From Octopus vulgaris (taxonomy: Eukaryota): a stretch of DNA of 64,000 bases. Where the stretch lies: assembly GCA_951406725.2 (NCBI GenBank), contig OX597837.1:46128001-46192000 (forward strand). Direction: 5' to 3'. Below, in pieces: positions 25,048-63,777 of the stretch. The translations under genes were made by a program, and so were the position numbers. The notes beneath the pieces were generated by a model. That model saw only the letters and a list, made by a program, of their open reading frames with translations, searched no databases and had not been told where the DNA came from. Each line of letters begins with the position of its first letter. Position 1 is the first letter of the stretch.

Positions 25048-25194
25048 ATGACTCGATCTTTGAAGTTTTCGGCCAAACTCAGCGCCTCTGATCCACAAAC
25101 CACTCCCGTCCGCATCATTGGACAAATCAGGAACTTGAACAAAATTGCGTACGATGATGTCAAAATGAAGTTGGAGCCTGTGGTTACTGCTGAA
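25048..25194 (+). CDS. NPEPL1: NPEPL1 coding exon 1 (MTRSLKFSAKLSASDPQ...EPVVTAE); exon starts at 25015
   Basis: Polypyrimidine tract and CAG acceptor at 25012-25014, ACAATG start, donor GTAAGT at 25195; resembles vertebrate NPEPL1 N-terminus (SDPQSRP...KLQPRVTEE). Confidence 0.92.
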
Positions 25195-27195: not shown

Positions 27196-27231
<36 letters not shown>

Positions 27232-29085: not shown

Positions 29086-29119
<34 letters not shown>

Positions 29120-32100: not shown

Positions 32101-35100
32101 TAGAAGTGTAACCAATCTTTTGGTAATAAATTTTAACAGCAAAATCTTATATGGGCCTCCAAGAGCCATATGGACCCTAGTTGAGAACTTCTGATGTAGA
32201 GTTAATGGGAAGGAGAGGCAGAAAGCACAGCTCCTGGTTTGCTGCTGTAGAAAGCAGTACAGGTCAAACTTGTGAAGTGATCCTTCAATCTATCTAAGAG
32301 AACAGGGACTCTGGGTCCAGAACTAACTCAGACCATGGTGAACCCATTCAATACCTACCAAAATGGAAAGAGAATGTAAAATGATGATGGGGGGGGGGGA
32401 TTATGAGTTGTAGTCACATTTCATATAAGACTTCCCTGGTGTGGGAACTTGTTCACTTTATAGGCGCAGGTGTGGCTGTGTGGTAAGAAGGTTGCTTCCG
32501 AACCACATTCAGTCCCACTGCCTGGTACCTTAGACAAGGGTTTTCTAGTCTAGCTGTGGGCTGACCAGAACCTCGTGAGTGGATTTAGTATACAGATACT
32601 AGAAGAAGCCCATCGTGTATACACACACACATTTGTGTTTGTCCCCACCACCACCATTTGACAACTGGTGTTGGTTTATTTACGATCCCATAACTTAGTG
32701 GTTCAGCAAAAAAGACTGAGAGATTGACAGAATAAGAACCAGGCTTTAAGAAAAATTAGCAGTGGAGTCAATTTGTTTGCCTATACCTCTCAAGGTGGTC
32801 CAAAGACCGAAACAGGTGAAAGAGGAAATGAAATGCATTGTTTTTAAAATACTTATTGAAGCCCTGATGAAGGTGACGTGTCGTCTGTTTTTCTTGTATC
32901 TGAAGTCAAATAAATGTTTGTTTCAACCATTTTCATAACTATTTGTCTTTTCAGATGGTCTGTGAACGTCGAGATGTGTTGGCGTCAGCTTGCGCTATTG
33001 CACGTGCACTTCCTGAATATTCCTGCAAGGCAAGCTGTACAAACAGTGTTTCGCAGTCAGTTACTGTAGAATTTATCTTGGTTGGTAATGACTGTGAAAC
33101 CGCTCTCGCTGCCAGTGATTTGGATTGCCTTCAAACAGTCACATCCGGCATTAGACTGGCTGCTAGACTTGTGGATGCTCCCTGTTCTGAAATGCATACT
33201 GATGCCTTTGTGGATGTAAGTTGACATCTTTTCTATCTTTTGTTGTCGGCATCTTTCATGCAGTTATTGGTATTTCTATTTTCAGCAGTCAGTATCTTTT
33301 CTGCCTTCAGCCGTCGACGTCTTTTCTGTCTTCGGCCATTGACGTCTTTTCTGTCTTCGGCTGTCCACGTCTTTTCTGTCTTCGGCTGTCCACGTCTTTT
33401 CTGTCTTCGGCTGTCCACGTCTTTTCTGTCTTCGGCTGTCCACGTCTTTTCTGTCTTCGGCCGTTGACGTCTTTTCTGTCTTCGGCCGTCGACGTCTTTT
33501 CTGTCTTCAGCCGTCGACATCTTTTCTGTCTAAAGCCGTCAACGTCTTTTCTGTCTTCGGCCACTGATGTCTTTTCTGTCTACAGTTTTTACAGTTTTAA
33601 ATGTCAATCAGTCTTGAAAATAATCAAAAATTCAGTGAAAATAAAATACCTGTTTTCATAAATTTATACAATAAGTCGGTGTTTGTGACATAGCTTTTAA
33701 TGTTCTTACATGAAATTATGAAGGAAGCTTTTAATTTAAAAGATTTACCAGCATATAACATCCACATTTTTCTTTAGATAAAAAATTTTAGAAAGAAACC
33801 CTGCATCACTATCACACTATAGATGTAAATATCATCTTTAAAAGAGAAAGGGTATTTTGTCTCTACAAATGAGATTAATTGAAAGATTATAATCTTGCTA
33901 ACGACAGCTTCTCTTGTCTTCTTTCTGCAGGAAATTTCTAAAATTGGTGCTGAATTAAATATTACTCCTCTTATAATTCGTGGAAATGAACTTGCTGAAA
34001 AAGGATTTGGAGGTAAATAGATATTCATTATTATTATTATTTACTTTTAATCTGCATGTTTGTTGCAATCACTTGCCAAGATGCCAAGCATCCTAGGGCG
34101 AGTGAAGGATAAGAGATGTTACATTATGACTGAAAACTTGGGTAGAGGGAGTGGTAGAAGCAGTAGTGAAATATCTTCATGTAATACAACACAGACAATT
34201 AAATGGATAGGGTTTTTCTAAGGGTGTGGGCAGTACTTGTCAGCACAATCTTTTAGATTTCTCTGAGATATGGTTCTCCTGGGATATTATCTAGCTGTTT
34301 CTAACATCCTTTTTTTTAGGGCATCCACAATAACAGGAACAATTCTCATTTTAAGATACCACATCTTTTCTATTTCAATTTCCAGGTCCTTATATTTACT
34401 TAATTTGTCAAATTCCTTTACAGATATATTTTTATCATTGGGAACACTTACATCCATTAGTCTACAAGTATTTTCTTCCCTGTCCTTAATGGCTATGTCT
34501 GGCCAAATAGCCTGGGTCATTCTGTCAGTGTTGACTGGAAAATCCTAGATGATGGTAACACTTTTATCTTCAAACTACTGGTTCAGGATCATGTTATACC
34601 AGTAAGCAGGAGTGCTGATTTTGTAGTGTTTCCATATTTTCCATTGTGAATATTGTCTGACCCTATTGTGGCGATTTTTGTATTCGTTTGGTGTCGGTAC
34701 AGGACATCCCAAGACGAGATGGTCTGTTGTTTCTTCAAATGTGTAACAGATGCCAGTCTGTTACAAGGTTACTCACTTTTGCCAGCTGAGTGGACCGGAG
34801 CAAGGTGAAATGAAGTCTTTTGCTCAAAAACACAACATGTCACCTGGTCCAGGAATTGAAACTACAATTTTATGATCATGTGTCCAACACCCTAACCACT
34901 AAGCCACGTGCCTACACTCCCAGGGTCCATATGAATACTAGTAGCCCATACAAGATTGGGCAGTGGGGTATGCAAGCAAAATATTAAATTGGCAATCCAC
35001 AGTAGTATTTCCTCTTTGCCAGCGTCTTCAAGAGGAGCCTTGTTTCTGCTCCGAAGAAGAGAATGGAGAGAACCATTGAGAACATCAGAGGGTACCATCA

Positions 35101-37495
35101 CGTTTCCAACAAAGAACTGTGTATGTGTTTCCATAAAACTAATTTTTAAACATTGAATGGCTATATAGGGGTCCACCAGAATAAAATAGTAATCAAAGGG
35201 GTCCATAGATAAAAAATAGTTGAGAACTGCTTTTTCTATGTGGTCACCTGCTAGAAATAACAGTAAAATTTCCCTTAAATCATATATTAATATCTTTAAA
35301 AAATGGAAGGGTCACATTGGATGGGGTGGCCATAGTTGGAACACTGTTGATCATAAGTCTGATATTGACTGAGTTTGGTTCAAAGAAAATAAAAACTTAA
35401 GAAGAGACGATTGAGTCCAGGTTTCAAGATGTGGCAGTAGAGGAGATTGTGTGTTTACAGTTGCTGGGTTAAAAGTCTACCCTACCCCTGTAAAATTGGA
35501 ACCGAGTATTAATGTAGTGATGATACTGGTAATAAGAGATGGGTGGTGTCATTTGGTGATAAATGTGACGATGATGATGTTTAATCTATAATCTACTTTT
35601 CTCTTGCAGGTGTTTACAATGTTGGCAAAGCTGCATCTCATCCACCTGCATTGGTTGTTCTGAGCCATAAACCAGAAAAGGCCACATATAATATATGTTG
35701 GGTCGGTAAAGGAATCGTCTACGACACTGGTGGTTTATGTATCAAATCTAAGGTAAGCCTCTCTCTCTTTTTTTTTTTTTTTTTTTTTTTTCAACCATTT
35801 CGTTACCAGAAAAATTTATATCAACAAAATTGGGACCTTTTACAGGGCCACTTAATTAGCTAGAACTTGCAGCTAAATGTCCCTCAACATAGGGCTTCTT
35901 TTTTTTTTTTTTTTTTTTTGTAGTGATATTCAGGCACCTTGAATAATGTTGCTACACTGTCAAAATAAAAATACATGGTGGTCACAGCTGGAACCTCTGT
36001 AATCATAGATCTACCAGGCAGAGCTTTCCCAGGAGTTTCTTAACAACAACAACAACAGCATTGTCATATGCTGTGAAAGTCACTTTTGCTCCAGTTTGAG
36101 GATAGCAGAGCAATGGCCTGGTTTCAGTGGTGGTGATCATGGTAGGAGTTTGATGAGCAGTAGGACAGAAAGGAAGAAGACTCCTTCCCTCCTGACATTA
36201 CCTGCTGAAAGTTAATAATAGACTTCATCACCAGAGGGGAGAGGTGAGGAGATGGTGACGAGTAGGATGTGACAAGGACTGTCAGAACAGTGTTGGGACT
36301 GGGGTGGATGAGTTCATTTTGGGGGTAGTGACAGCAAGTTAGAAATCATCATCATCAGCAGTAGTAGTAGTAATAGTAGTGATTATTGTCATATCTTCAC
36401 TGTCATCATATCATTATTATCATGCAGAGTTCTTGCTTGTTCTTTGCCTTTCACCCTTCCAGGGTCAATAAAATAAGTACCAGTCAAGTATGGGGGTGGG
36501 GTCTAATTGACTAACCCCTTCACTGAAATTACTGGCTTTGTGCCAAAATTTGAAACCATTATTATTATTATTATTAAGATGTTGAGCTGACAGGATCATT
36601 AGTGCATTAGGCAAAATGCTTAGTGGTATGTCATCCATCTTTCCATTTGAGTTCAAATTCTGTTGAGGTCAACTTTGCCTTTTCATCCTTTTGGGGTTGA
36701 TAAAATAAGGACCAGTTGATCACTGGGGGTAATGTAATTGACTTGCTCTACCTCTGAATTTCATGGCCTTGTGCCAAAATTTGAAAGCATTGTTGTTGTT
36801 GTTGTCACTGCTGCTCTTGTTATTATAAGGATGATGTATTGGCAGAATCTTTAGGCAGTGAGCTGGCAGAAACATTAGCACGCCGGGCGAAATGCTTTGC
36901 AGTATTTCGTCTGCCGCTACGTTCTCAGTTCAAATTCTGCCGAGGTTAACTTTGCCTTTCATCCTTTCGGGGTCGATTAAATAAGTACCAGTTATGCACT
37001 GGGGTTGATGTAATCGACTTAATCCCTTTGTCTGTCCTTGTTTGTCCCCTCTGTGTTTAGCCCTCTTGTGGGTAGTAAAGAAATAAGAATCTTCAGATGA
37101 ATATGTTGCAGCATTTGTTTCATCTCTTTGTGTTAATGAGTTCAAATACAGCCAAGAAAGTCAAGTTTGCCTTCCATCCCTTTGGGCTTGATAAAATGAA
37201 GTAGCAGTCAAATACTGTTGTCAATGGTATCCACTAATCCCCCCTCCCCTCAAAACTGCTGGCCTCATACGTAACTTACAAACCACTAATACCATAATAA
37301 TAATAATGTTGTTGTTTCATAATATTGCTTTCCCCCTTTCTCTGTCCATAATTTTTGTTCATTTTTATTTCAGGCAACCATGCTGGGAATGAAACGGGAT
37401 TGTGGAGGAGCAGCTGCCATTCTTGGTGCTTTTTATTCAACTGTCAAGTTGGTACGCAATTAGTTTTTGCTTGTTTAGCTAATTCCTCTCTTTCC

Positions 37496-37526
<31 letters not shown>

Positions 37527-38353
37527 AGAGAGAGAGATCTATTTCTTTCTTGTCTGTTATCTTATTCACGTTGAAAGGAGAAAGAAGGGAAAGAAAGCTG
37601 CTAAAGAAGAAATGTGTATGCATACATAATATATATATATATATATATATATAAAATCATCATCCTCATTTAACGAGTGCTTCCCATGATAGCACAGGTT
37701 GGATGGTTTGACAAGAGCTGGCAAATCAGAAGAATGTACCAGGCTTCACTGTCTGTTTTGGAATGGTTTTCATGGCTGGACGCCCTTCTTAACACCAACC
37801 CTCTTACAGAGTCGACTGAGTGCTTTTTATGTGTCACCAGCACAAATGAGGTCTGCTTTGGCGTGGGTTTTTATGGCTGGAGGCCCTTTCTAATGCCAAT
37901 CCCTTTACCGAGTGGCCTGGCCGCTTTTTACATAGTAACAGCACCAGTGAAGTCTGCTTTGGCCTGGTTTTCATTGCTGGATGCCCTTCAGCTGGTCATA
38001 AAGTAACTCACAAGGCATAACTCTTTTGAGATGAGATTGGATATTGGAGGAGGTGGCACTGGCATCAGCCACACACATAGGAGCTGGTCAGGTGGCACTG
38101 ACATCAGCAACACTCAAATGGTGCTTTTTATGTGCCACCGTCACAGGCTGGGCGTATATTACTGTAAACATGTACATATAATTATGCATACTGAAATTTG
38201 GTGTGTTTACGTCCCCGCAACTTAGCGGTTCGGCAAAAGAGACCGATAGAATAAGTTCTAGGCTTACAAAGAATAGGTCCTGGGCTCGAGTTGCTCGACT
38301 AAAGGCGGTGCTCCAGCATGGCCGCAGTCAAATGACTGAAACAAGTAAAAGAG

Positions 38354-38403
<50 letters not shown>

Positions 38404-41400
38404 CAGACACACACACACACAGTTATATATTTATTGAAGTATTTGGATATAAAGAGTATGCTCCTTGTATCTGATTACTTTGGCTTTGTTTAAATTGATC
38501 CTTAATCATGCATAATCTCACAGCTTCGAGATTTCAGTGATGCGGTTTATTTTTAGAAGGAATATTTAGGGCAAGTGTGGTGGGGGGGCTTGATCTCACT
38601 GGTTTGGACATAAAAACAAGTAGAACATTTGGGGCCAGATTTAATGCTAGGGGATCGAATGTAAACTTTGCTTCACTGTTCAAACTTGTATTACTTTTAA
38701 TTACTGTTAATATAACTACCTGTATAATTAAGTATAGTTTTATCTGGAATAACTGTTTACTTTCAATATTTCAGGGCTTCACGGAAAACTTACATGCCAT
38801 CTTCTGCCTAGCAGAGAATGCCATTAGTCCCGATGCACTCCGTCCAGATGATATCATCAATATGTATTCAGGGAGGTAGGTGCCGTGTCTCAGTTCTTTC
38901 TTACAAATCGGGTTCCACATATGTGGACCATAGATTTCCATGTTTGATCCCACTATGCAACACTTGAAGCAAGTGTCCTCGACTATTGCCTCAAGTTTAC
39001 CAATGAACCAAAGAGTGGAATTTGGTTGACAGAAACTCTTCCATAGCTCATCATATATCTCATCATCATCATCATCGTTTAACATCCGCTTTCCAAGGTA
39101 GCATGGGTTGGACAATTTTGACTGAGGGCTGGCGAACCAGATGGCCACACCAGGCTCCAATCTGATCTGGCAGAGTTTCTACAGCTGGATGCTCTTCCTA
39201 ATGCCAACCACTCCGAGAGTGTAGTGGGTGCTTTTACATGCCATTGGTACGAGGGCCAGTCGTGCAGTCCTGGCAACGGCCAATATTTGTATATATAAAT
39301 GTGTGAGTGTGTTGGGGTTGTCTGTGACTATATTTTTCAGATGTAAACATTAAGAAAATGGTCAAACTGATTCTTTCAAACAAAAGCATATTTATTCTGC
39401 TCAAGTTGTACAGATACTCCCTTGGTGCTCAAGCCTTCATAATTGCAGTGCAACAGTGATTGGCCCATTGCAGTGAAGCTGTTGTTTGTTTGCCAAATGT
39501 CCATATAATAGGACACAAATATATAAACCATCATCATCATTTAATGTCTATTTTCCATGCTGGCATGGGTTGGATGGTCTGACCAGAGCTGATAAGGCAA
39601 GGGGCCACACCAGCCTCCATCTTCTGTCCTGGCATGGTTTCTACAGCTGGATGTCCTTCCTAATGCCGGCCACTCCACAGAGTGTAACTGAGTACTTTTT
39701 TATATAGCACCAGGCATCAGGATCAATTCTGCTGTGTTGGATGGGTCTTCTTGAGTACAGCAACATACCAGATATCTCAGTCCTTTGTCATCTTCATAAG
39801 TCTGAAGCAGAAAGAAATAGTTAAGGGGGTCTGTGACTAGAAGTCATCAGTCAAGAGCTCTTCATCCTTTAGAAACCAACATCACCATCCGAACCAACGA
39901 CAGTACTTCTGTGCAGTCATGTGACCCGAGAAAAGCAGGAACATTTCTTTGTCACCGTCTCTTACTGTTTTTCTAGTTCGGTATTTTAATTCCAATGGTC
40001 ATCACAAACCACATTATTAATGTTTTACAGGAGATAGAAGTACAACACCACCATTGACTCATATAAGACATGCAACAATAGAGACCCTAACACTCATTCA
40101 TATATACAATGCGCTTACAAAAATAAACATCCATATATATGTATACATGTTTCCCTCTCCAGAGCTGGGCTCACGAACATTTTTACATCTGGCTGGTTTG
40201 AGCATAAAACAGATAGAATATTCGGGCTTGAATATGGCTAGTTTAAAGACCAAAAGGGTTAAGGCAGGGGCTGACTTATCCAAGGTCAGTACTTCCTGAC
40301 TTTTCATTAGTCCTGCACCCCTTTTGATTACCACTCGAACCTTACTTGCATTCCTCCTTAAATCTTCCACTGTGATCTTTTTTTTTTAAAAGTAGAGGAG
40401 GTTTAATTTGAACCTGTTTCATATGTATTCCCAGTACTCCCTGAAATGAATTTTAGTACCCCAGATTAGGAGACACTGCTTTAGATGAAGCTAAAAGTCT
40501 TTGGTGGTGCCCCCCAAATAATTTAATGAATGACAAAATCAAACTTTTTGCCTTATTTCTATTTACAGAACAGTTGAGGTCAACAACACGGATGCAGAAG
40601 GCAGATTGGTTCTTAGTGATGGTGTAAGTTGTTTTCCCTGTATTACCACTTTATTAATAGATATAAATGTTTGTTTCTGTGTTCAGTTATAATCCTTTCT
40701 ATTAAAGGCACACGGCCTGAAATTTGGTGGGAGGGGGCTGGGTTGATTACATTGACCCCAGTGTTTTACTGGTACTTAATTTACAACCCTGAAAGGGTGG
40801 AAGGTAAAGCTGACCTCATGTTTAGTTATAATAACAAAAATTTTTTAAAAACTGTTTTACTTTGATCTGATGGGTTACTCTATACTTTCTTAGAGTATAA
40901 ATTTATTATTCTTATACAAGAATCTTGTTGACAGTGACTTTGAAGTTTCAGCCAGCTAAGCTATCATTGGACTGCAATTCATTAGAATTAGTCTTGTTTT
41001 ATATAGCCTCTGTTAGGTTAAAATCATGTTTGTGTTGGGGGTGGTAATTAGGTTTTTGTTTACCACCCCCAACTCAAACCCAAGCACCCAAAAATTATTT
41101 TTAACCCAACGATGGCTTAGTTGGCTGAAACTTTGAAGTCACTGTCAACAAGATTTTTGTATACAGGCATGGCTGTGTGGTAAAAAGCTTGTTTCCCAAC
41201 CGCATGGTTCTGGGTTCAATCCCACTGCATGAAACTTTGGGCAAGTGTCTTCTACAATAGCCTTAGGCAAAAGCCTTATGAGTGGATTGGTAGACAGAAA
41301 CTGAAAGATGACCACCATATATATATGTGTGTCTGTGTCTCCCACCATTGCTTGTGTGTTTACATCCCCATAACTTAGCAGTTCGGCAAAAGAGACTGAT

Positions 41401-44400
41401 AGAATAATTACTTGGCTTACAAAGAATAAGTCCTGGGGTTAATTTGTTTGACTAAAACCCCTTAAGGTGGTGCTCCAGCATGGCCACAGTCAAGTGACTG
41501 AAACAACTAAAAGAATTTGAACTCAGAACACAAAGACAGGTAAAATGCCACTAAGCATTGCTAATGATTCTGCCAGCTTGCTTCCTTATCTGTTACTATC
41601 TAATAAAGACATCTCTTCCTTCTTCGCAGGTGGCTTATGCACAAAAAGACCTCAAAGCTGATATTGTGATAGATGTTGCTACTCTGACAGGAGCTCAGGG
41701 AGTGGCAACTGGTAAGTAAAGAACATTTTGGTTTTTACTTTTCTACTTCTAACATCTTTTCCCCACACCCAACCCCATCCCATATTTTCTGTTGTAATCC
41801 AACAAGGAAACCTCTTCATGGTTGCATAACCTGCAACAAGCAGACAATTCTTTGTTAAATCCTTTTGTATTATAAAAGAAAGGTCACACTGGATAATGTA
41901 ACCCTAGATACACTAATCATCATTTTATGTCTGCTTTCCATGCTGGCAATGGTTGGTCAGATCATTATTGTTCAAATTACTTACAATTCTTACCTAGATT
42001 TACTGCTCACTTAAATAAGTGAGAAGACTAAATTTGACTTAGATGTTGCATTTTTAGTGTAGTTTTTACAGATCAGTGTCTTTCCTGACCCCAATCTCTT
42101 CACAGAGTGTACTGCATGCTTTTTAGCTTAGCACCTACACTACAGAAATTGTCAAGTACTCAACAAGACTATTTACAGTTCTCTCTTCAGTCTGTTGTTT
42201 CTGATCGGCAGTCATTTTACAGAATGCACAAGATGTAGCATCACCACTGAAGAAAATCTTCCTCTTCATGATGAATGTGTGTTCATAAGACACTCAATTT
42301 ATCAACACGATAGACCATGGGACAGCTGATGTTTTGATATTGTTGTGTCTTTTTGGCCTGAGGTACCCCAGGCTAATGAATCTGACTATAGCTTCATGGT
42401 TTTGTTTATAACTGCAGCAAACAAAATAATTACCAATGCAGTTTCCTGTTCTACTTCTTTTTTTTACCTTTGAAATTTTTTTCTTCCCCAGGTCGTTTCC
42501 ATGCAGGTATAGTAACCAATAATGAAAACTGGGAAAACGCTTGTTTAAAAGCTGGCCGTGTCAGTGGTGATCTTGTACACGCAATGCCATACACTCCGGA
42601 ATTGCATTTTGTTGAATTTTCTAGTGCTTTAGCTGACATGAAAAATTCTGTTGCTGTAAGTATGAGTATTTATATTTGTTAATAAATATCTGTTGTCTTA
42701 CTGTCCAATATATAATTGTATATATTTCTCTTCTGAGATTTTTTAATTTCCTTGTATTTAATAAAAATAGTTTAATTATCAAACTCTTCCAATTATTTCT
42801 GTCATTTGTCCCCTTTTATACACTTATTTTCTTTTAACCCTCTGATTTGATCTTTTATACAGAGGACTTGTAAGATGCAAAAGCAGTTGAGTGATAATTG
42901 TTTTTTGTTATTTCAGGATCGAAGTAATGCCCAAGTTTCATGTGCTGGCCTTTTTATAGCTTCAAGTTTAGGATTTGATTATTCTGGTATCTGGTTACAT
43001 ATAGATATGGCATTCCCAGTCTATTCTGTAAGTAAAGAGATGTTTTCTTATTTCAAAGTGTGTGTGTGTGTTTTTGTAACTTTATGGTTATAACTGAGTC
43101 TTCTGTATGGTATCTTTGGCAAGTGTCTTGTACTACAACCTTGGATTAAACAATACCTTATGAGTAGAATGTGGTAGATGGCTTTTCCATGCTTGCATGG
43201 GTCAGGCACAATTTGTTGAAGTAGATGTTTCTGTGGCTGGATGCACTTGCTGTCACCAACCCTCGCTTGTCCTCAAACATGAAGACTGCAAATGATCAAC
43301 ATTGCTTGTATAGCAATGACACTTGTTCACAATCATCACATGATGTCAAGACATGGGTATACACAAACATACATACATACATACATACATACATACATAC
43401 ATACATGTGTCGGGCATCCAAGCCAAATCAGACTGGAACCAAGTGCAGAGAGCTTGCCAGTTCTGGTCAAACTGGCCATACCATGCCAGCAATGACAAAT
43501 GGACGTTAAAGGAAGAGGAGGAGGGTAGATTCTTTCAGTTTCTGTTTTATCAAATCCACTCACAAAGCTTTGCTTAGCCCATGGCTATTGTAGAAAGCAC
43601 TTTCACAAGGTGCTGTGCAGTGGGACTGAACCTGATACCACATGGTTGAAAAGTTAGCTTCTCAGCCACACCTTATTTGGCTGTTTATGTATAAATATGT
43701 TAAATATTTATACACAAGACAGCATGTGTTAGGAAACTTAAAATGAATTTATAACAAACCAGTTTTCAAACTTTTGAACTTTAACCCTTTAGCTTTCAGA
43801 TTATTCTGTCCAAACATAATGTTTATTTATTCACATTGTTTCGAATGAAGCCAGCATAATTTCATAGCTTTGAGATTTCAATGATGTGGTTATTTACTTT
43901 TAGAATGACATTGTAGGGTGGGTGTGAGAGGCTGGATTTGGCCAGTTTGAACATAAAACAGGTAGAATATTTGGGTTGGATATAGCTTGTTTGTTTATTA
44001 TTGTCAAGCATCTTTACCTTTTTTTTTCTGTTCACCTCCGCAAAGCCATTAAAATATCAATAGAAGTGACTTTTTTGTGAATTTTCTATCCAGAACCCAA
44101 TCAAAATGCCCAAAACTTGATACGCCAATTGAATGCCAGCTAGCTGTATGTGATTGGTCAGAGATTTGGACAGTACTCACGTGTATGTGCGCACGCACAC
44201 AGCTGTATATGCATGCACTAGCACTATGACCCGGCGTTGCCAGGTCATAGTGCTAGTTATTATTATGGGGTTTTTTAATTATTATTCTAATTCTATTTTT
44301 CAGGGCGAACGTGCCACTGGCTACGGAGTTGCCCTTCTGGCAACACTGCTCGGAGAGGGTTCCTCAAATTCCATGTTGCAGTATGTAGCCCCACCTTTAG

Positions 44401-49869: not shown

Positions 49870-50153
49870 TATTGGGTCATCCCATAAATAATGCAGTTTT
49901 TTCAAGTGCATGAACTAAAAATTGGAGGAGGACAGGATAATCTACCCGCATCAACTTGTTATAAAAGCAAGTAGTAATTTTTACCTTGTACTTATTCTTA
50001 GTGCAAGTTTTGAAGAGTGCAGTTCGATTTTAACAATTATTTTTTCAAAGCTATAATGGAAGTCACAAAGGAGCATATTCGGCATATTTCACTTTATGAG
50101 TTCAATAAAGGCAACAATTCAACGGAAAATGCGAGGAATATTAATGCAGTATA
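49870..50153 (+). mobile_element. Mariner 5' end fragment
   Basis: TA-TTGGGTCATCCCATAAATAATGC TIR-like start and MEVTKEHIRHISLYEFNKGNNSTENARNINAV transposase N-terminus, truncated by a SINE. Confidence 0.75.
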
Positions 50154-53100
50154 AGGCCTCAAATTTGGCGAGGGCTGAGTCAATTAAACAAGTCGGTACT
50201 TTATTTTATCGGCATCTTCCCTGCCTAGAAGAATGAAAAGCAAAGTTGGCTTCCACTGGATTTGATCTCACAACGTAAAAATCCGTAAATACCGTGTATT
50301 GCTACAGAATAATAGTTATAATAAGACTAGGTTTTCAAATATGTTCTTCATTTTTAAGTAACAGAGTGTGTGATTTAAGGGGGATTTTGCTGCTATTTCT
50401 CCACGGGTTCGTGATAATAAACAAAAATTAGTTGTCGTCGAAGTACTGAATTTCAGTGACATAACCCTCAGATCATACCTATCGTCTAACATAAGAAAAC
50501 ACATTAGGTTATTACGGCCTTATGAATCCAGGTTAAAAAATCAAAAGGGTTTTGTCTGGATCCCATAAATTAATTGACTTTATTACTGTGACTTTATTAC
50601 CGGTCACCAGTCTGATATACCTCTAAAAACAGGATGATCATAACTGGAGTGTCTTTTATTACTTGTCTGATGGATCATAAAAGATCTGGAGATAACCAAC
50701 TAGTAGTTATTAAACATTTGCCTGTCCAAAACATTTTCATAAATTTGTCCTAAACGTCCATGCTTGTTTTCAGACTTTCTTAGTTTTCCACTGTTTTCAT
50801 TCGTTCTGTGTAAAATAAAGCTTTCCTTTCACAAGTACAAAGTTACTTTAGTGACTCAAAAAAATCAGGAATGTGTATCATTATATAAATGCATGGACTC
50901 TAACGAAAGTTGTCCTCTGTATCACATTTGAACAAGCTCTTGGAAAAGGAACGAAAATCAAAACTTGTGCTTTTCCCTATTATTGTATAGTTAATGGAGT
51001 TTAACCCTCTGTCTTATAATCTGCTTTGTGTGATACCTTCTAAATCGCACATTAGTTTTCTGATAAAGGCAGAGGGCCTCAAATTTGGACGAGGCATCCA
51101 AGAGGAAAAACATGTCATAGGCCTAACTTCCACAAATGGCCGATATAAATTGTCCTTGTGTTACCAATTGTGTCTTGTACGTTGATATGAACGACTTCAA
51201 ATATTTGTTTATTTACGCCAATTATCATTTATGGTATTTAAATGGAATTTCGTTCAGTGTTGCCATATTGACTCCAGTACTTAAGTTGTTAATTATTCTA
51301 ATTAAACGTAATATTGCTACCGATAAATAGACGTTTGTATTATTATTATTAAACTCTCTGCATTCACCATTAAAAAAAACTTTGGATCTTTTACCAATAT
51401 ACGAAGTTTAAAAGTGTTTAGTTACAAAGAAATTATTTTAAAAATCTGCCGGTCAAAGTGAAAAGATCAAAAACTATAGAAACTAACAATCGCATTTGAG
51501 TTTATTAAAACTATTTATTTATTATTTTAAAATATAATCAAATGAGTCAACTCTATTTTGTAAAACGATGGCCACAATCTTCTATCGATTCACTCAGAAT
51601 TTTTTGCATCCAAGCAAACGTTTCCATCTCACTAGCTCTAATATAAGGGATGCTCATTTTGGCAGTTTCCATAGGATTACTAATATAGTATGAGTGGAAT
51701 ATGTATGGTTCCAGTAATACCGTTGATCATGGTAATCTTTTACAGGGTCTAGAGGAGTTATACCAATATCGTATGGAACCTTCCTAACCTTTCTCAAGGC
51801 GATGTTCATGTCTACAACGATGTCGACTCCAAGAACGACGAAGATACATTTAACATTTCATGTGTTAAATGTTTCATAAAACTCTGCTCAAAAATAACAT
51901 AATATAAACTTTAATTTTAAGCTATTTATATTTTCTGTGTAGACATTGTTTTGCTTTTAAAATGCTGTACTAGAATACATAATTACACTATATATGAATA
52001 ATTTTTATTGTCAGTAAATTTTCAAATGCATATTGCCATATTTGTGGTACTATATTGAAAAATGAGTATTTTTTTCTGTCGGATGCCAAATAAACAGAAA
52101 AACAGTTTAGTAAAGTCACATGCGCTTTGTCTTTGAAAAAATTGGCCCAACGCAAAATTCCAGCAAGCTTGATGCAAAAATTTGGCCTACATCTTGGAAC
52201 ATGCCTTCTTTTAAGACAACCATCATGGCACCATTTCATTCCTCCTAATTTCGAGCTGGTAGAATCGTTAGCGCGTCGGACAAAATAATTAGCATCAGTT
52301 CTTCTGGCTTTTAACGTTCTGAGTTCAAATCCCACCTAATTCGACTTTGCCTTTCATCCTTTCAGGGTCGATAAAATAAGTACCAGTTACGCACTGGGGT
52401 CGATGTAATCGATTTACTCCTCTCCTCTAAACTGGCTGGTTTTGTGCTAAATTACTTTCTTTTTAATGTTATACACATTCATAACATGTTTAGAGAATGT
52501 TGCCCGTGATTGAGGGAAGCCATTTTTCTTGTTGAGATATTTCTTGAGGGGAAATAACAGCCAAAAGAATACCAAGAATTTATGACGCAACGTCAAGAAT
52601 ACAAAGGTTAGAATTGGGTCCCTAAGCTTGTGAGATTCCCGGGATAACTTCCCAATGTACCCATACTTTAAGAAGGATCCGTGCCTAATCTAATAACAAC
52701 CATTCAGTACGAGAATTACCCAAGCAACACTCAGTAGAACCATTCTGCAACACACAGCTGAGTTCACAACATACGCTAGGGCCTTAAAAAAAGGGCATAT
52801 TGAATAACGTGACCCTTGATAATGCCATATCTTTTTATCTTTTATTTTTTACTTGTTTTAGTCATTAGATTGTGGCCACGCTGCAGCACTGCCTTGAAGG
52901 ATTTTTAGCCGAACAAATCACACCTTGTTTTAAAGCCTGATACTTATTCTATTGGTTTAAGTTATGGGAGCGTAAACAAACCAACTCCGGTTGCCAAGCA
53001 GTGGGGGAAGAAATACAAAGGCATACACACACATTCACTTATATGTATGCATATACAACGAGCTTCCACACAGTTTCCATCTACCAAATTCTCTCACAAA

Positions 53101-53429
53101 GCATTGACTGGACCGGGGTTATGGTAGAAGACACTTCCCCAAAATGCTGCTCAGTGGGAGCGAACCCGAAACCGCTTTTTAATTGCATAGCCGTGCCAAT
53201 ACCTAAAGGAAGAAAAATACCGGATGGCCACGGCCGGAATACATATGATCATAAGTCTGCAGGATCAGAACAGACCCGGGCCTAAATTACAAGTTTTATT
53301 TTATTTTCACCTTGTATTTTCTTTTTAACAGTTCTTTCACTTCTTTAATGAAATATTCAAAGTTTTTTCTTAAAATAAAAAGAAAAGAATTTCTTTATAT
53401 TCATTAAAAAATTTCCAGAATATAGTCGA

Positions 53430-53550
53430 CCATTGAAGACAGGAAAGATTTCATTCAGTCATTGAGCAGCAGACGACAAAGAACGTCGTCTGCAACGTCG
53501 TCTGCTGCGATAAGACGCTCGCTTCACACACGGAACACTTTCTTTCTCTT

Positions 53551-53589
<39 letters not shown>

Positions 53590-54064
53590 CACACACACAT
53601 GTAATACATATGCAAATACATATGTATGTGCTCTCTCACACAAACACACACATACACACACTCTCTCTCCCTCTCTTTTCCTTCCCCCCTCTCTCTCCCT
53701 AGCGTTTCCTCTCCCCTTTCTCTCTCTCTCCCCCTCTTTCTCCCCCTCTCTCTCATACTCTTATATACATCCATTCCTCTCCCAGATGAATTAATATAAA
53801 CATCGTGAAATCTTTGCTGGAAGAATAAAGACCGACAAGAAACAATCTGATAAGCTCCACATCTCAGCCTAGACATATACAGATACTTATAACTTCATAT
53901 ATATATATATATCTATATATCTACATCTTACAGCCATTCTTACACAAACTGCCACACACAGAATATCAGACGAATTGAACAACGAAGATCAAATGTGAAA
54001 CCTCGAATCAAAGACCCAGTTTTTTTTTGTCCCCTTGATCCCTACAAACTTTTAAAACGTCAAA
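53430..54064 (+). promoter_or_regulatory. Candidate promoter and non-coding first exon of the IHO1-like gene
   Basis: Local CpG cluster (AACGTCGTCTGC twice, GACGCTCGC) in CpG-poor DNA, CT-rich leader, strong donor AAA|GTAAGT at 54065; next strong acceptor found is 57701. Confidence 0.5.
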
Positions 54065-56960: not shown

Positions 56961-57751
56961 TATCAGTAGTGATCAATGCTAGATATACCTATGAGCCAAT
57001 GGGGGAGCCCCTGTGTGCTCTTTTGACCTGCTAGAAACATCAGTCAAATCTCCTTCAAATCTCACCTTGCCATCTTAGAACAGGACATAATTGAGAATGA
57101 GGCCTAAGTTCTCTGTACAAAGGTAAAATATGAATATTTTATGGAATTAATCGTAAACCTATTGGGTTATTCCTGAAAACTTTATCCGAAAAGCCTGTGT
57201 TGTGTCTGTATCAAAAGATAGTTGCTCACCTGCAATTCATTGAAAAGTGAAGGAAATTGGAATACAACGATTACTTAATTCACTTTATATATATACTTTA
57301 TGAGCTGGTCACACTAAGAATGTCTTTGATCATAGGTCTGCTCTAACCAGCTGACCTTTGGCTAAACAACAACAACCCCTAAATATATTTAGGAATGTTA
57401 TCAGAAACAATAGGCTGATGTTCTTATAGTCATTGTTTAACTTTTAAGTCAGTCCTGAATGAGCAGACTTATGATCAAAGACATTCCAGCCATGGCCATC
57501 CCGTCTTTTTGTATGTATTGAACTATATTCTCCAACGTTTTCTTATTTTTATGATGTTAAGAAATAATTTGAGGGACATTTGGCTGCTATTTCTAACAGA
57601 TGGACTATGTAAATACACCTTTATATAGCTCATTAGGCCAATGCATGTGTTTATTATGTTTCCGTTTAACATTATAAAATAATTTTTTTTCTTTTTTTCA
57701 GCTTTTCTCGAAGACATTCAGGAAACCTGCCTTTATACTTAAAAAAGCACA

Positions 57752-57792
57752 ATGCTTCTAAATCATATTAAGTCAAAAGATTTATTTTCCAA
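57752..57792 (+). CDS. IHO1: IHO1-like coding exon 1 (MLLNHIKSKDLFS); exon starts at 57702
   Basis: Long poly-T tract and CAG acceptor at 57699-57701, in-frame upstream TAA at 57740, ACAATG start, GTAAGT donor at 57793. Confidence 0.7.
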
Positions 57793-60700
57793 GTAAGTTC
57801 CAGAGATAGCATTTTTCCAAGATTTATTTATATGCATACACGAGTAAATGTGTGTTTATGAGTGCATATAAAAATGCATGTGAGTTTTTCTGTGCACCTG
57901 TTTATTATTATTATTATTGAGTGAGAGAGACCAGCACACTGGGCTACAAATGTACGAAGCCCAATTCATCCATCATGGCTACTTGTCTGATAAGGGTATA
58001 CCAGGCACATGCATCACAACCATATTTACACATAGCTATGATGCTCCCACTCTACTGCTTATGACCAGAGGTTTACATATCGTTAGACACTAAGGGACAT
58101 GCTCAGCTGGTTACGGTCAAGCAATTCACTAACAGATCTGTGGTATTGAATTATTTTGCTGTTGTCCGTCTTTTATACCAAGACAAAACATGTACATGAT
58201 AAGACTTCCAATTGGTTAATACCACAAGCCATTTTTACACGGCACCAGGATGGGTGCTTCTATGGGGCACCAACATGGATGGTTTTTACAAGGTGCCAGC
58301 ACAGGTGCTTTTTATGCAGCCCCAGCACAGATACTCTTTACATGGACCCAGCTTGGAAGCTTTTTAGGGGAACCAGCACAGGTGCCCTTTTTTACATGGC
58401 ACCAGCAAGCATGTAGGAATATACACATGCAGATAGAGAGGGAGTAAGAGAGAGAACAAGAGGGTGAGAGACATTATAATTTACCAAGTGCACATGATTG
58501 ACATAAACACTTTCCCTCTCCTCATACACAGAAAGTGAAATATACTCACACATATACTGAGAGAGAGAGAGGTGAGAAGGGAGGGAGAGAAGAAGAGAAA
58601 TATCAAAATGTCTGTCAAACCATCGATGCCAAATTGGTGCCAAAATGTCTCTAGCCACAGTCTCATGCTGATTCAAGTATTGTTAATAAAACTGGGTTGA
58701 CTGTTGCTTCTTTGCAAGGTTGTCACAAGATTAGGAAGCATTGACCACAGTGACCCTTAACTTAATAAATACCAGCTCTCCCTCAGCCCCCAGATTTTCA
58801 TGAAACTTTTGTCCTCCCCACTCTTTTTTATTTACTGATAGATTGATAGAATAGAGTTACATAATTCTTCTTTCTTCACTATGATGATTTATAAGTTTAA
58901 AAAGTTTAAAATGGTTTTAATTTTATTGAAAATAAATTCAGTTATTTGCGGCCCTCAAAGGATGGTGAAAAGGGCTGCTCTTATCCACTGTGAGGTCAGT
59001 TTGGGCTGTGTCTAGCATGGCCACAGTCCAATGACTGAAGCAAGTAAAAGATAAGAACCATTTTTATAAACAATTCCAAAATATTAAAACTTTTTCATTT
59101 CTTTTGCAGTTATTCAGATGAGAAAGGAGGAGAATCAGGGTTTGGCAGTCAAAATTCTCTATTTCAAAACTCTGAAAATGACAATTATTCTCAGGACTTC
59201 CTTACTGAACAATATCCAAGTCAGGTAGCTGTCATCATAATTATTCTTAGCACTGTCATCATCGTCATCATTGTCGTTGTCGTCGTCGTCATCACCTGTG
59301 TTATCATCAGTATTGTTAGTGTTGTTGTCATTGCCATCATCATCACCATGATCATCATTGTTATGTTCACCAGTGTTATCATTATCATTATTGTCATCAT
59401 CATCGTCATCGTTATTAACATCTTTATTACATTATGATCATGTGTTGTCATCATCAGTGTTGTCATTGTAATCACTGTCATAATCATCATCAATGTCACT
59501 AATGTTAATTATTATCTGTTTGAGGGTTTATTGCCTGTTATCATCTTTTCTCCACGCTAGCATTACTTGAATGTGTCTGTAATATAATACAATTCCATGT
59601 CTATATAGTCTGGTACCGGAGCAAATTGGCTACTTGTGATTCTTTCTACTATAATGAATCCAATATTTGGATGCATTATGAGTTTAATATCATCAATATT
59701 TAAAGTATGTCTCTCTCCATAATAAAGAGGTGAGCTAGCAGAATCATTGCCACAGCCGAGAAAATGCTCTTTACTCTCTTAATTCAAATGCTGCCAAGGC
59801 CAACTTTGTCTCTCGTCCTTTTGGGGCTGATAAAATCAGTAGCAGTCAAGTACTAGGGTTGATGTAATTGACTTTTGTCTCTCCCCTTAGAATTACTGGC
59901 CTTGTGTCAAAATTAGAAAGAATATTTCTCACTCTCCGGCAGCATGCTGTGTCCTTGAGCAAGACACTTTATTTCATGTCTCATTACTCCTGTCCACTCA
60001 GCTGCAAAAAGGGAGTTGTACCTGTAATTCAATGGGGGGGGGGGCCAACCTTGTCACATTTTGTGTCATGTTGAATCACCTTCAGAACTGCATTAAGGGC
60101 ATGCTTGGTTGTGGAGTACTCAGCCACTTTCCCATTAATTTCATGAGCAGGCTGTTCTGTTGATCGCATCAACTGGAATCCTTGCCACCATAACTGATGG
60201 AGTGGTCAGCTGTTCTTTTTAATGCACACACACACACATATATATAACAGTGAATAAAATATAGTCATCATCATCATCACCGTCATCATTTAACAACCAC
60301 GGTTTGCATGGATTGATGGATTTGGATGACTTGCTACAGTCAGAGTCAGCTTTCAATCAAGGGGTTCTGCCCACCTAGATTGGTGAGGGGCTTCATTCTG
60401 CACATGTTGAGTTTCTGGCTTAGTTTCTATGGCTCGATGACCTTCTTAACACCAACCCCCTTTACAGAATGTACTGGAAGCATTTTTAATTTATTTTGGC
60501 ATCAGCACTAGACAGGTAACTATGTCCTCAACACAACTTAAAGGACCTCACAACCTCTGCTCATTCACCAGTCTCTTTACAGAATGAGAAGCATGAGTGT
60601 TAGAGGCATCAATGACGGTGATGAGAGGGATATGGAATTGGGAGAAGAGTGATAAGACTTCTTGGTATTCTAAGATATATTCAACCCTTCAGCATTTAAA

Positions 60701-63192
60701 CTGGCCATATCAGGCCCAAATGTCCTACTTGTTTTATGTTAAAACTAGCCAGACTTATGATCTTGGAGAAGATAAAGATGAATACCAATGTCCCATGTGA
60801 CAGGTTTGATAATTGCAGAGATTTCTCTCTGCATGAAACTAATGGTAGCCTCATTAACCCGCAAATAAAGTATGTAGGAAATTTATGTAGACAGGGGTGA
60901 AAAAAGTCATATCTTGAAGATTAAGTTAAAGAATGTAAGCAAAACAAACTTATTAAAATTTCAGACCCCTTTTTTATTTTCAAACTACACTTTATATTTT
61001 TTTAAATTCTTTTTTATTTCCCTGTTTTAGAGTATGAGGGTGTACCAGAAATATATGTGTGAGCCTCCTTTGTACAAAGCTTCTAATCAAATAGAACTAT
61101 CAAATAAAACACTCTCGGTTTGTAATCCACTGGAACACAACAGAATGAAACCAAAGAATCAAGATGATCGGTATTAGTAAAGTTTCTTAAACATTCTTCC
61201 CTTTTCTAAAACCATTATTTAAAAAAAAAACTTTTCTTATCAATTCTGTAATCAATGAGTTTTCTAGAATTTTTTTTTTCTATTTTAATTGAATGCTTGA
61301 TTGCTCTATATCACAAAGAAGTAACAACAACAGTTTTCATTTCTTTTTAAATATATCCATGCAGACATGTTTGTGTGGTTAAGAATCTCCCTTTGCAACC
61401 ACATGGCTTTAGGGCCAGTCCCAGTATATGGCACCTTGGTGGTTGTGGTGGTTAAGCCTCAGGTTGGTCCTGATTGAAGCAGTTTTTGTCCACTGAATTT
61501 CACTCACATGACTTTGGATGATCTGAAGCTGTAGCAAAAAGAAAAGGACTTGCCCCTAAAACACTCATCAGGACTTTTTGTACCAAACTCTGCTTCCAGA
61601 ACTTCTTAGACCTTAGGAAAAAAATGGGATGCTATTCCATGGAAACTTCATTTAATTTTCATAAAGGTGCACACACATTTCATTTTCCACCACCAGGTTG
61701 GAAAAAAGCATATCTTCTTTAGCTTCAAATGATTCCTACACATCAATACAAACTACCACACATCTCTCTTTCAAACTGGATATCAACTGTTGAGCTATCC
61801 ATCTTGCACACTTTTCAACACCCAATGTCTTCCACCATTTTCTCTAATGCATTGTGACCCCAATCCACTTGTGCAGCAAGTTCACATATTGTATGTCATC
61901 TGTATGCATGAATCCTCTTTTTTCACTTCTTGGTGATTTGTGAGGATTCATTCAAAGTTGATGGTTTCCCACCAAGTAGTTTGCCTTCAGTACTAGCTTC
62001 CCCGTCTTTAAACATTTTCATCAGTTTGTGCACATTGTACTTGTCAATGCCATCATCTTTTATAAACAACTTGTACAATCTTCTACATAGGGGTAGGAGT
62101 GACTGTGTGGTAAGTAGCTTGCTTACGAACCACATAGTTCCAGGTTCAGTCCCACTGCACAGCACCTTGGGCAAGTGTCTTCTACTATAGCCTCGGGCCA
62201 ACTAAAGCCTTGTGAGTGGATTTGGTAGACGGAAACTGAAAGAAGCCCGACGTGTGTGTGTATGTGTGTCTGTGTGTCTGTGTTTGTCCCCCCAACATCG
62301 CTTTGAAACCAATGCTGGTGTGTTTACGTCCCCGTAACTTACCAGTTTGGCAAAAGAGACCGATAGAATAAATACTAGGCTTACAAAGAACAAGTCCTGG
62401 GGTCAATTTGTTTGACTAAAGGTGGTGCTCCAGCAAAGCCACAGTCAAATGACTGAAACGAGTAAAAGAGAATCTTCTGTGAACAGCCTGCGATGGCACA
62501 ATGCTCCAGCTTGGAACCCAAAATTTATCTGCAATGTAGAAGAACTAGAAGAAGAATCCTTGATATCATCATCATCATCATTATCATCATTGGTACAGGT
62601 ATGGCTGTGTGGTAAGAAGTTTGCTTCCCAATTTCATAGTTCCAGGTTCAGTTCCACCATGTGGCATCTTGGGCAAGTATCTTCTACCATAGCCTTGGGC
62701 TAACCAAAGCCTTGTAAGTGGATCTGTTTGATGGAATCTGAAAGAAGCCTGTTGTGTGTGTGTGTGTGTGTGTGCATGTGTGCATGTCTTTGTGTATGTG
62801 TTTGCCCCCCCCCCCCACTTCTGCTTGACTATTGGAGTTAATGTGCTTACTTCCCCATAACTTAGCAGTTCAGCAAAAGAGAGTGATACCGTAAGGGCCA
62901 GGTTTTACTAATAGTAATAAGTACTAGAGTCAATAAGTTCGACCAACATTCCCCAAGGTTGTTTCGCAGCATGACTGCAGTCTAATGACTAAAACAAGTA
63001 AAAGATAAAAAAAAATAGGGCAAGTGGGATTGAACACAGAATCATGTGAGTGCAAAACAAACTCCTTAACCACACACCCATGAGTTCTCATCATTATTAT
63101 TATCATTTATGCTTTTTATTTTATTTTATCATCTATTTTACAGCCCCCTCATTAATACCATTGTAAATATTATGAAGGAGTCTTCAAATGAG
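57752..63192 (+). CDS. IHO1: 5' part of a probable IHO1/CCDC36 (Mer2/Rec15/PRD3-family) meiotic DSB factor; 4 coding exons, 115 aa in window, gene continues past 64000
   Basis: Exons 57752-57792, 59110-59224, 61031-61170 and 63144-63192 splice at GT-AG with phases 2,0,2,0 into a stop-free frame: MLLNHIKSKDLFSNYSDEKGGESGFGSQNSLFQNSENDNYSQDFLTEQYPSQSMRVYQKYMCEPPLYKASNQIELSNKTLSVCNPLEHNRMKPKNQDDRPLINTIVNIMKESSNE. Colinear similarity to remembered human IHO1 motifs (FGSQF..ENSE, IFTKYQTKPQLF, FEEKKKRAKDKCDSETLYNFVSNVRES). The gene model is more certain than the name. Confidence 0.68.
59110..59224 (+). CDS. IHO1: IHO1-like coding exon 2 (YSDEKGGESGFGSQ...EQYPSQ)
   Basis: ttttgcag acceptor, CAG|GTAGCT donor; open in the phase set by the previous exon; three SQ dipeptides. 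Confidence 0.72.
59230..59520. repeat. Degenerate (CAT/TGT)n trinucleotide tract
   Basis: Begins directly after the donor at 59225. Confidence 0.85.
61031..61170 (+). CDS. IHO1: IHO1-like coding exon 3 (SMRVYQKYMCEPPLY...KPKNQDD)
   Basis: Long pyrimidine tract and ttttag acceptor, GTATTA donor at 61171; open in phase 0; YxKYxxxPxL(Y/F) motif. Confidence 0.72.
61500..62085 (-). mobile_element. Highly degraded mariner-like transposase relic
   Basis: MFKDGEASTEGKLLGGKPST resembles mariner FKxGxxSxEDxPRxGRPST. Confidence 0.45.
63144..63192 (+). CDS. IHO1: IHO1-like coding exon 4, 49 nt (PLINTIVNIMKESSNE)
   Basis: ttttacag acceptor, GAG|GTCAGT donor; phase 2/0 matches; amphipathic helix consistent with the start of a coiled coil. 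Confidence 0.7.
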
Positions 63193-63249
63193 GTCAGTGA
63201 CCTTGTGTTTTATATTTTGAGTATGTGTAAGCACTGTGGCCTTTGTCAT

Positions 63250-63777
63250 TGTTCTTGCTGCTGCTGTTGTTGTTGTTGCTGTTGTTGTTGTTGTTGCTGT
63301 TGTTGTTGTTGTCTTTATTATGAAATGAGCTTTTGAATTAAAGTTTCAAGTTATTATTTATTGCATTGCACACAGACAATTCTCATACATTCCATGTTAT
63401 AATTGCTCCCATGCATGCAGGTCAAATAGGCTTTCATTACATTTCGGCTATTCATTACCACCACCACCACCACCACTACCATTGCTATCAGCAGCAGCAG
63501 CAGCAGCAACAGCAACATTTATCATCATCATCATCATCATCATGACCATCAATATCAACAATGAGAGCACCAAAACCACTTCCACCTCTCTCACCACTGC
63601 TGCTACTACTGTCACTGCTGCTACCACCCTTCAACCCCACCACCACCACCACCACTATCATCATCATCAGCAAAACCATCATCATAATCACAACACCAGT
63701 GACCCATCCCCATTAACAACAAGAACAACAACATCCCAGTCCTTATTGTCATTATCACCATCTTCAAGACCATCACC

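What the first reader, a model, noticed from the sequence alone, without database searches (positions are those of the whole stretch)
57702..63192. Cryptic multi-exon gene resembling the meiotic DSB factor IHO1 (Mer2/Rec15/PRD3 family)
Seen: four small exons (41, 115, 140 and 49 coding nt) with strong splice sites whose phases fit (2,0,2,0) into one stop-free 115-aa frame, with an in-frame stop just before the ATG. Three exons are absent from the ORF track and the fourth is buried in a spurious poly-Cys ORF. From remembered sequences, motifs line up in order with vertebrate IHO1: FGSQ..NSE, VYQKYMCEPPLY vs IFTKYQTKPQLF, LEHNRMKPKNQDDRPLINTIVNIMKES vs FEEKKKRAKDKCDSETLYNFVSNVRES. The N-terminus MLLNHIKSKDLFS also echoes plant PRD3 MKMNINKACDLKS. 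Known: this family evolves fast and is often missed outside model taxa. Inference: a cephalopod member of the REC114-MEI4-IHO1 machinery that may be annotated only as uncharacterised.
Basis: partly seen in the sequence, partly recalled or inferred. Interest (0 to 1): 0.8.

Follow-up and report, generated by a model that had tools for sequence, protein, structure and literature searches.

The report
Likely octopus IHO1 meiotic scaffold gene
These four small exons are the start of a real, so far unnamed octopus gene for a long coiled-coil protein, with relatives in cuttlefish, starfish and sea urchins, that is likely the invertebrate counterpart of IHO1, a scaffold that helps place the DNA breaks that start meiotic recombination.

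Summary
The gene is real. The four exons, their phases and the 115-aa frame check out. Database models from Octopus sinensis and O. bimaculoides splice the same way (113 of 115 residues identical), all named 'uncharacterised'. It runs past the window as at least 11 stop-free coding exons. Relatives occur in Argonauta, cuttlefish and echinoderms (8 proteins), sharing an N-terminal motif, a KY..xPL motif and a basic patch at the start of a predicted helix (98-272) between disordered arms. This matches the published IHO1/Mer2 layout, and the genome has a REC114-like exon. However, no tool linked the family to vertebrate IHO1: Pfam PF15771 was never shown, no vertebrate IHO1 was retrieved, and the mouse C-terminal acidic patch has no match. 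The closest links (motif register, intron phases) rest on recall. The true C-terminus is unresolved: one database model ends in what looks like a neighbouring MANBAL-like exon. Verdict: probable IHO1 orthologue (about 0.78), a new member of a known family.

The parts
57702..57792 (+). First coding exon (50 nt of 5' UTR, ATG at 57752, 41 coding nt, phase 2); encodes the 13-residue N-terminal motif, candidate REC114-binding SSM1. Its acceptor implies an unfound non-coding exon upstream.
   Evidence: identical N-terminus in O. sinensis, O. bimaculoides and Argonauta models; similar motif in most echinoderm homologs
59110..59224 (+). Coding exon 2 (115 nt, phase 0): S/Q/N-rich, predicted disordered
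   Evidence: SQ dipeptides invariant in 6 of 6 aligned homolog fragments
61031..61170 (+). Coding exon 3 (140 nt, phase 2): Y-x-K-Y-...-P-L motif (predicted short helix 52-60) and the basic K-x-K-x-x-D patch just before the long helix
   Evidence: single match in the genome at DNA and protein level
63144..63192 (+). Coding exon 4 (49 nt, phase 0): start of the predicted coiled coil. The gene continues beyond the window at G000:C24 = 46128000 + 68875-68962, 71069-71139, 71795-72069, 73927-74733, 77004-77064, 77585-77663, 78723-78778.

Best explanation
The four exons begin a single-copy octopus gene of at least 11 coding exons whose protein (about 600 aa: disordered N-arm, long predicted coiled coil, disordered C-arm) is likely the IHO1/Mer2 orthologue. 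Shown: gene structure, intact frame, a cephalopod-echinoderm family, and a predicted helix with heptad periodicity. Inferred from mouse and yeast work: in meiotic prophase the coiled coil (about residues 98-272) would form a parallel tetramer. The first ~13 residues would bind the REC114 PH domain and so recruit REC114-MEI4. The basic patch at the coil start and the C-arm KKRR motif would bind and bridge DNA, driving condensation. The C-arm would tether the complex to the HORMAD-coated axis, which licenses SPO11 breaks.
For: Gene: (560 of 624 aligned residues identical to P0005; no internal stop). Family: phmmer over 1.84 billion representatives gave 11 hits at E<=0.001, among them Argonauta, Sepia and four echinoderms (E 3.7e-7 to 9.4e-4); the profile search added four more echinoderm proteins. 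The homology is not just coiled-coil composition: an echinoderm-only profile of the pre-coil part scores octopus residues 1-97 at 23.7 bits, against a maximum of 12.0 in 1000 shuffles. Layout: AF2 on 13 sequences gives helix 98-272 (pLDDT mostly >90 over 101-220) and mostly disordered arms; hydrophobic period 3.58, 0 of 500 shuffles as strong. Mouse IHO1 has one helix 114-245 in an otherwise disordered chain and needs its first 23 residues for REC114 (PMC10425845). Its DNA-binding K121-R124 lie at the coil start (PMC10393190). In 8 of 8 echinoderm homologs the D-x-R-D-L coil-start motif begins at residue 121-131, right behind a basic stretch. A [KR][KR]R[RC][LMF] motif lies in the last 110 residues of 7 of 9 homologs (chance <=0.006 each, pattern chosen after looking), like the essential KRRR of the yeast Mer2 C-arm. 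Human IHO1 also has its ATG in exon 2 (PMC9156845). A REC114-like exon over the Pfam cut-off exists on C23, and no other locus passes the PF15771 cut-off. Recalled, not tested: the first six human coding introns have phases 2,0,2,0,1,0 with exons of 49 and 88 nt at positions 4 and 5; the octopus gene has 2,0,2,0,1,0 with 49 and 88 nt there. The recalled vertebrate N-terminus shares residues 4, 9 and 13 and the acidic/hydrophobic pattern at 10-12 in register.
Against: No profile or sequence link to vertebrate IHO1. PF15771 is absent for 5 of 5, 9 of 9 and 8 of 8 proteins and from the families shown for 6 N-terminal fragments (one search shows only 25 of 49 families). No vertebrate IHO1 is among the hits, and no non-cephalopod mollusc, annelid or cnidarian homolog was named there. 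The published mouse C-terminal peptide scores at chance level on the octopus protein (best 17, 53% of shuffles as good), and the echinoderm C-terminal profile does not recognise the octopus tail (549 of 1000 shuffles as good). Residue 3 is L, not the F that mouse needs. The octopus protein has about 100 extra helical residues (277-375) and at least 11 coding exons, against 7 in human (exons 2-8). A central coiled coil with disordered arms is a common layout. The Atlas gave no hit >=0.9.
Confidence: 0.78

Rival explanations
1. A different conserved invertebrate coiled-coil protein (centrosomal, ciliary or synaptonemal), whose likeness to IHO1 is architectural only.
For: No PF15771 or vertebrate IHO1 hit. 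Fold searches return only generic coiled coils at Z<=8.5 and 4-12% identity. The mouse C-terminal patch is not found.
Against: The conserved blocks (extreme N-terminus, pre-coil basic patch, C-arm basic tetrad) are the regions known to matter in IHO1/Mer2. No well-conserved vertebrate family was hit, which fits a fast-evolving meiotic factor better than a ciliary one. The recalled intron phases match.
Confidence: 0.17
2. A descendant of IHO1 that has lost or changed its DSB role (for example, no longer docked on the axis through an acidic C-terminal patch).
For: L at position 3 instead of F; no match to the mouse acidic patch; extra helices; database models disagree on the last exon.
Against: Intact frame at 90% identity between octopus species; N-terminal motif kept across cephalopods and most echinoderms; REC114-like partner present; the true 3' end is unknown, so a patch may still be found.
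Confidence: 0.04
3. The exons are chance matches or a pseudogene.
For: Weak exon-3 donor; no RNA junction was seen directly.
Against: Same junctions in models of two octopus species, conserved protein in cuttlefish and echinoderms, and an 11-exon stop-free frame.
Confidence: 0.01

Closest known systems
Vertebrate IHO1/CCDC36 (Pfam PF15771)
   Same: Short conserved extreme N-terminus, disordered N-arm, basic patch at the start of a long helix, long disordered C-arm; ATG in a non-first exon (33, 50, 65, 77). Intron phases and two exon sizes agree with recalled human values (not tested).
   Different: No PF15771 hit; N-arm about 30 residues shorter in octopus; extra helices 277-375; more 3' introns; no match to the mouse C-terminal acidic peptide; L instead of F at position 3.
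Mer2 / Rec15 / Asy2 / PRD3 / PAIR1 family, with a Nematostella member listed in PMC5695089 supplement legends
   Same: Central coiled coil flanked by short motifs; basic tetrad in the C-terminal disordered region, like Mer2 KRRR.
   Different: No sequence link could be computed; SSM1 and SSM2 alignments are figures that were not readable; tetramer not shown.
RefSeq/UniProt 'uncharacterised' proteins XP_036368659.1, XP_014775577.1, XP_052832242.1 and echinoderm LOC110983696, LOC121410088, LOC117307297, LOC117105415
   Same: Direct orthologues and homologs.
   Different: None is named IHO1. The octopus models have three or four different C-termini: P0004 shifts frame, and P0005 ends in what looks like the last exon of the neighbouring MANBAL-like gene.

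Membership tests
IHO1/Mer2 | Match to Pfam IHO1 (PF15771) over the cut-off | tested here: not met
   No row; none among families shown in 43; no match at this locus. That the model is built mostly on vertebrates is recalled, so this lowers but does not exclude membership.
IHO1/Mer2 | Retrieval of a vertebrate IHO1 by iterative search | tested here: inconclusive
IHO1/Mer2 | Central long coiled coil flanked by disordered arms | tested here: met
   Helix 98-272, arms mostly pLDDT<50 (65); period 3.58, 0 of 500 shuffles. Predicted, not measured.
IHO1/Mer2 | Parallel homotetramer | tested here: inconclusive
   The complex prediction gave no verdict (see Tried and rejected).
IHO1/Mer2 | SSM1: conserved extreme N-terminal motif that binds REC114 PH | tested here: inconclusive
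   A conserved N-terminal motif ending in [KS][DE]L[FY][ST] is present in octopus and 7 of 8 echinoderm proteins. Its likeness to vertebrate SSM1 is recalled; residue 3 is L, not F. Binding not tested.
IHO1/Mer2 | Basic DNA-binding patches (coil start in mouse; C-arm KRRR in yeast) | tested here: met
   K92 and K94 invariant in 6 of 6 fragments; basic tetrad in the tail of 7 of 9 homologs; positions compared with PMC10393190. Sequence pattern only.
IHO1/Mer2 | SSM2 with acidic patch at the C-terminus (HORMAD binding) | tested here: inconclusive
   The mouse peptide matches at chance level. Acidic residues follow the basic tetrad in octopus, but the real last exon is unresolved.
IHO1/Mer2 | Intron positions and phases shared with vertebrate IHO1 | not testable with these tools
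   No vertebrate genome or exon table was available. Only 'ATG in exon 2, c.1053 in exon 8' was found in print. Agreement of six phases and two exon sizes rests on recall.
IHO1/Mer2 | Meiosis-specific expression, axis localisation, need for DSBs | not testable with these tools
   No run on record as RNA, and no tissue labels.
IHO1/Mer2 | Partners present in the genome | tested here: inconclusive
   REC114-like exon over the cut-off; the MEI4 search rang nowhere, controls included; HORMAD and SPO11 not searched.

The most novel reading that the evidence does not exclude
This gene and its echinoderm homologs define an unrecognised invertebrate branch of IHO1 that keeps the REC114-binding N-terminus and the DNA-binding basic patches but has replaced the vertebrate C-terminal acidic HORMAD-docking patch with a KRR-hydrophobic motif (followed by a predicted-by-eye terminal helix in echinoderms), and in octopus has a much longer helical stalk; a different way of tethering the break machinery to the meiotic axis.
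Probability: 0.25. Interest if true: 0.6.

Novelty: new member of a known kind. Interest (0 to 1): 0.42.

Why it matters
IHO1/Mer2 is conserved in function but nearly invisible to sequence searches. I found no paper holding both 'IHO1' and 'octopus' or 'IHO1' and 'mollus' in the open library; subscription papers and most supplements were not searched. If right, this names about a dozen 'uncharacterised' cephalopod and echinoderm proteins and gives a bridge set between vertebrate IHO1 and the Nematostella member. It shows which short motifs survive across bilaterians, and offers a meiotic marker and candidate sterility gene for octopus and sea-urchin work. An invertebrate orthologue is expected, so the surprise is modest.

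Tried and rejected
RNA: no listed holder was on record as RNA. Laying four guessed-RNA contig sets on the downstream stretch L003 (last coding exons) was swamped by repeats, showed no exon-exon joint among the rows displayed, and next to no cover on the large exon. Four-copy complex prediction of residues 82-265: no answer (0.02, alignment not used, fold uncertain). ESM Atlas: nothing >=0.9. PDB by sequence: best E 1.4, and 0.028 to PP2A-A, judged chance. Foldseek: 0 matches; VIA-align: generic coiled coils only. Pfam IHO1 on the genome: two sub-threshold hits on C20 and C22 in model positions 326-454, not followed up. MEI4 search uninformative. Two of the 11 hits (P0010 unnamed repeat protein, P0014 frog repeat protein) were dropped as repeat artefacts, and P0003 (intron read-through) was left out of alignments A2-A4. 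My idea that exon 11 resembles the mouse C-terminal peptide was tested and rejected. The exon at 46128000+114144 was rejected as this gene's last exon because a MANBAL-like first exon lies 8.5 kb upstream of it on the same strand and a GTSE1-like gene lies between on the other strand; this is inference. Human exon boundaries were sought in papers without success. Supplement searches for alignments or primers found nothing or were not readable; figures of SSM alignments are not held, and bioRxiv supplements are closed, so published alignments may already include molluscs. One search was too loose: none of the 40 listed papers held IHO1. Three look-ups of earlier scan findings were empty.

Full report
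Observation. Exon 4 is inside the poly-Cys ORF 63109-63336 and exon 3 holds only a 47-aa ORF. Acceptors score 7.9-13.3 on a generic matrix, but the exon-3 donor is weak at -2.6. The window is G000:C24:46128001-46192000 of a 2.8-Gb genome, and exon 3 has one match in it at DNA and protein level.

The gene is already modelled but unnamed. A search with exon 3 alone found 3 of 3 candidates, all Octopus proteins named uncharacterised or after low-complexity look-alikes. Mapping these to 150 kb of neighbouring genome gives seven more exons of 88, 71, 275, 807, 61, 79 and 56 nt, phases 1,0,2,2,0,1,0, all with AG/GT ends and no stop. With P0005's last exon added, the product is 630 aa and 560 of 624 aligned residues match P0005. 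That last exon is probably not this gene's. It lies 35 kb on, beyond a minus-strand GTSE1-like gene (PF15259, E 0.0046, below cut-off) and 8.5 kb behind a plus-strand UPF0239/MANBAL-like exon (E 2.6e-12) that needs a short basic last exon (the MANBAL gene shape is recalled). The database models end in different ways, so the protein is secure for 594 residues and its end is open.

Family. phmmer with P0004 over 1.84 billion representatives gave 11 hits at E<=0.001: three octopus or argonaut proteins, cuttlefish and a cuttlefish-like fragment, four echinoderms, and two repeat proteins that I dropped. A profile of six N-terminal fragments found 9 proteins among 7999 scored: eight echinoderm and one octopus. 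An echinoderm-only profile of the part before the coil scores the octopus first 97 residues at 23.7 bits; the best of 1000 shuffles reached 12.0. The echinoderms were picked by similarity to octopus, so this confirms where the signal lies rather than adding independent proof. The C-terminal 200 residues show no overall homology (549 of 1000 shuffles as good), apart from a basic-tetrad motif in 7 of 9 tails (pattern chosen after looking).

Shape. AlphaFold2 on 13 sequences predicts helices 52-60, 98-272, 277-310 and 318-375, with the rest disordered (mean pLDDT 54.6). Hydrophobic periodicity is 3.58 for residues 98-190 (0 of 500 shuffles), and 3.58-3.68 in three echinoderms (0, 3 and 11 of 500). 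Fold searches return only generic coiled coils.

Comparison with what is known. Papers seen: PMC5695089 (passages and supplement legends) defines the family by SSM1, a central coiled coil and SSM2, and lists a Nematostella member. PMC10425845 (passages and section 11) gives mouse helix 114-245, tetramer 130-245, and residues 1-23 with F3 binding REC114 PH. PMC10393190 (passages; its preprint, one passage) gives mouse K121-R124 and yeast KRRR as DNA-binding, and identities often below 10% between distant homologs. bioRxiv 10.1101/2023.11.27.568863 (passages) gives the C-terminal acidic patch for HORMAD1. PMC9156845 (passages) places the human ATG in exon 2 and c.1053 in exon 8. PMC11745334, PMC12876976 and PMC10997794 were searched in supplements only, without use. 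Against this, the family has the same order of parts. The echinoderm coil-start motif begins at residue 121-131 in 8 of 8 proteins, just after a basic stretch, close to the mouse numbers. The genome holds a REC114-like exon over the cut-off and no rival locus over the IHO1 cut-off.

What is only recalled. From my own knowledge, not from any call: human IHO1 coding exons of 56, 175, 164, 49, 88 and 104 nt (phases 2,0,2,0,1,0) against octopus 41, 115, 140, 49, 88, 71 (2,0,2,0,1,0); an in-register likeness of the first 13 residues; and that GTSE1- and fibulin-like neighbours fit the ancestral linkage group that includes human 3p21. These are leads. If the exon figures hold, the orthology is close to certain.

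What speaks against. No Pfam IHO1 row in 5, 9 and 8 proteins, nor among the 25 of 49 families shown for six fragments. No vertebrate IHO1, and no named bivalve, gastropod, annelid or cnidarian homolog, was retrieved. The mouse C-terminal peptide matches at chance level. Residue 3 is L; the octopus protein has extra helices and more introns.

Mechanism. Shown: gene, frame, family, predicted coil. Inferred: a parallel tetramer whose four N-termini would bind REC114 PH domains, whose basic patches would bridge DNA and drive condensation, and whose C-arms would attach to the HORMAD axis, placing SPO11 activity in prophase I germ cells. 'Works like IHO1' and 'is IHO1' stand or fall together here, at about 0.78; formal membership is not established by a tool.

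Verdict. A correct and well-spotted gene, most likely a new member of a known family that databases leave unnamed. No paper in the open library held IHO1 with octopus or mollusc terms. Interest 0.42.

Noticed in passing
window 25015-41711 (+), exons at 25015, 31585, 33931, 35610, 41630: Upstream neighbour: M17 aminopeptidase (PF00883, E 7e-14), NPEPL1-like by recall; later exons not mapped.
   Followed up: partly
G000:C24:46213500-46224000 (-); L005:237-1535: GTSE1-like gene (PF15259, E 0.0046, below cut-off) with a large exon holding many 11-residue repeats rich in K-N-Q-T-x-P-L-N-E-S; an apparent frame change near L005:200-240 may be an assembly slip in the repeat.
   Followed up: partly
L006:3467-3691 (+) and L007:2144-2254 (+): UPF0239/MANBAL-like first coding exon (E 2.6e-12). 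The exon used as the end of RefSeq XP_014775577.1 looks like its second exon, so that model is probably a read-through chimera.
   Followed up: partly
G000:C24:46248900-46284500 (-); L007-L011: Fibulin-like gene: calcium-binding EGF-type exons and a Fibulin_C exon (E 0.0016, below cut-off).
   Followed up: partly
L019:1483-1710 (-), G000:C23:23191516-23191671: REC114-like C-terminal exon over the Pfam cut-off; rest of the gene not mapped.
   Followed up: partly
L002:9069-9139 to L002:9795: At the exon 6/7 junction this genome lacks about four codons present in both other octopus species' models; in-frame deletion or a missed micro-exon.
   Followed up: no
window 50001-54000: CpG observed/expected 0.4-1.0 over about 4 kb, 4-8 kb upstream of the ATG exon; candidate promoter and non-coding first exon.
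   Followed up: no
window 59225-59500: Intron 2 opens with an imperfect (ATC/GTC/GTT)n repeat whose poly-Ile/Val frame was taken as coding in UniProt A0A0L8H4M4 (P0003), an annotation artefact.
   Followed up: yes
protein P0004 (O. sinensis model): Shifts frame after about residue 336 relative to this genome and O. bimaculoides and ends at 360 aa; probably an assembly error in that record.
   Followed up: no
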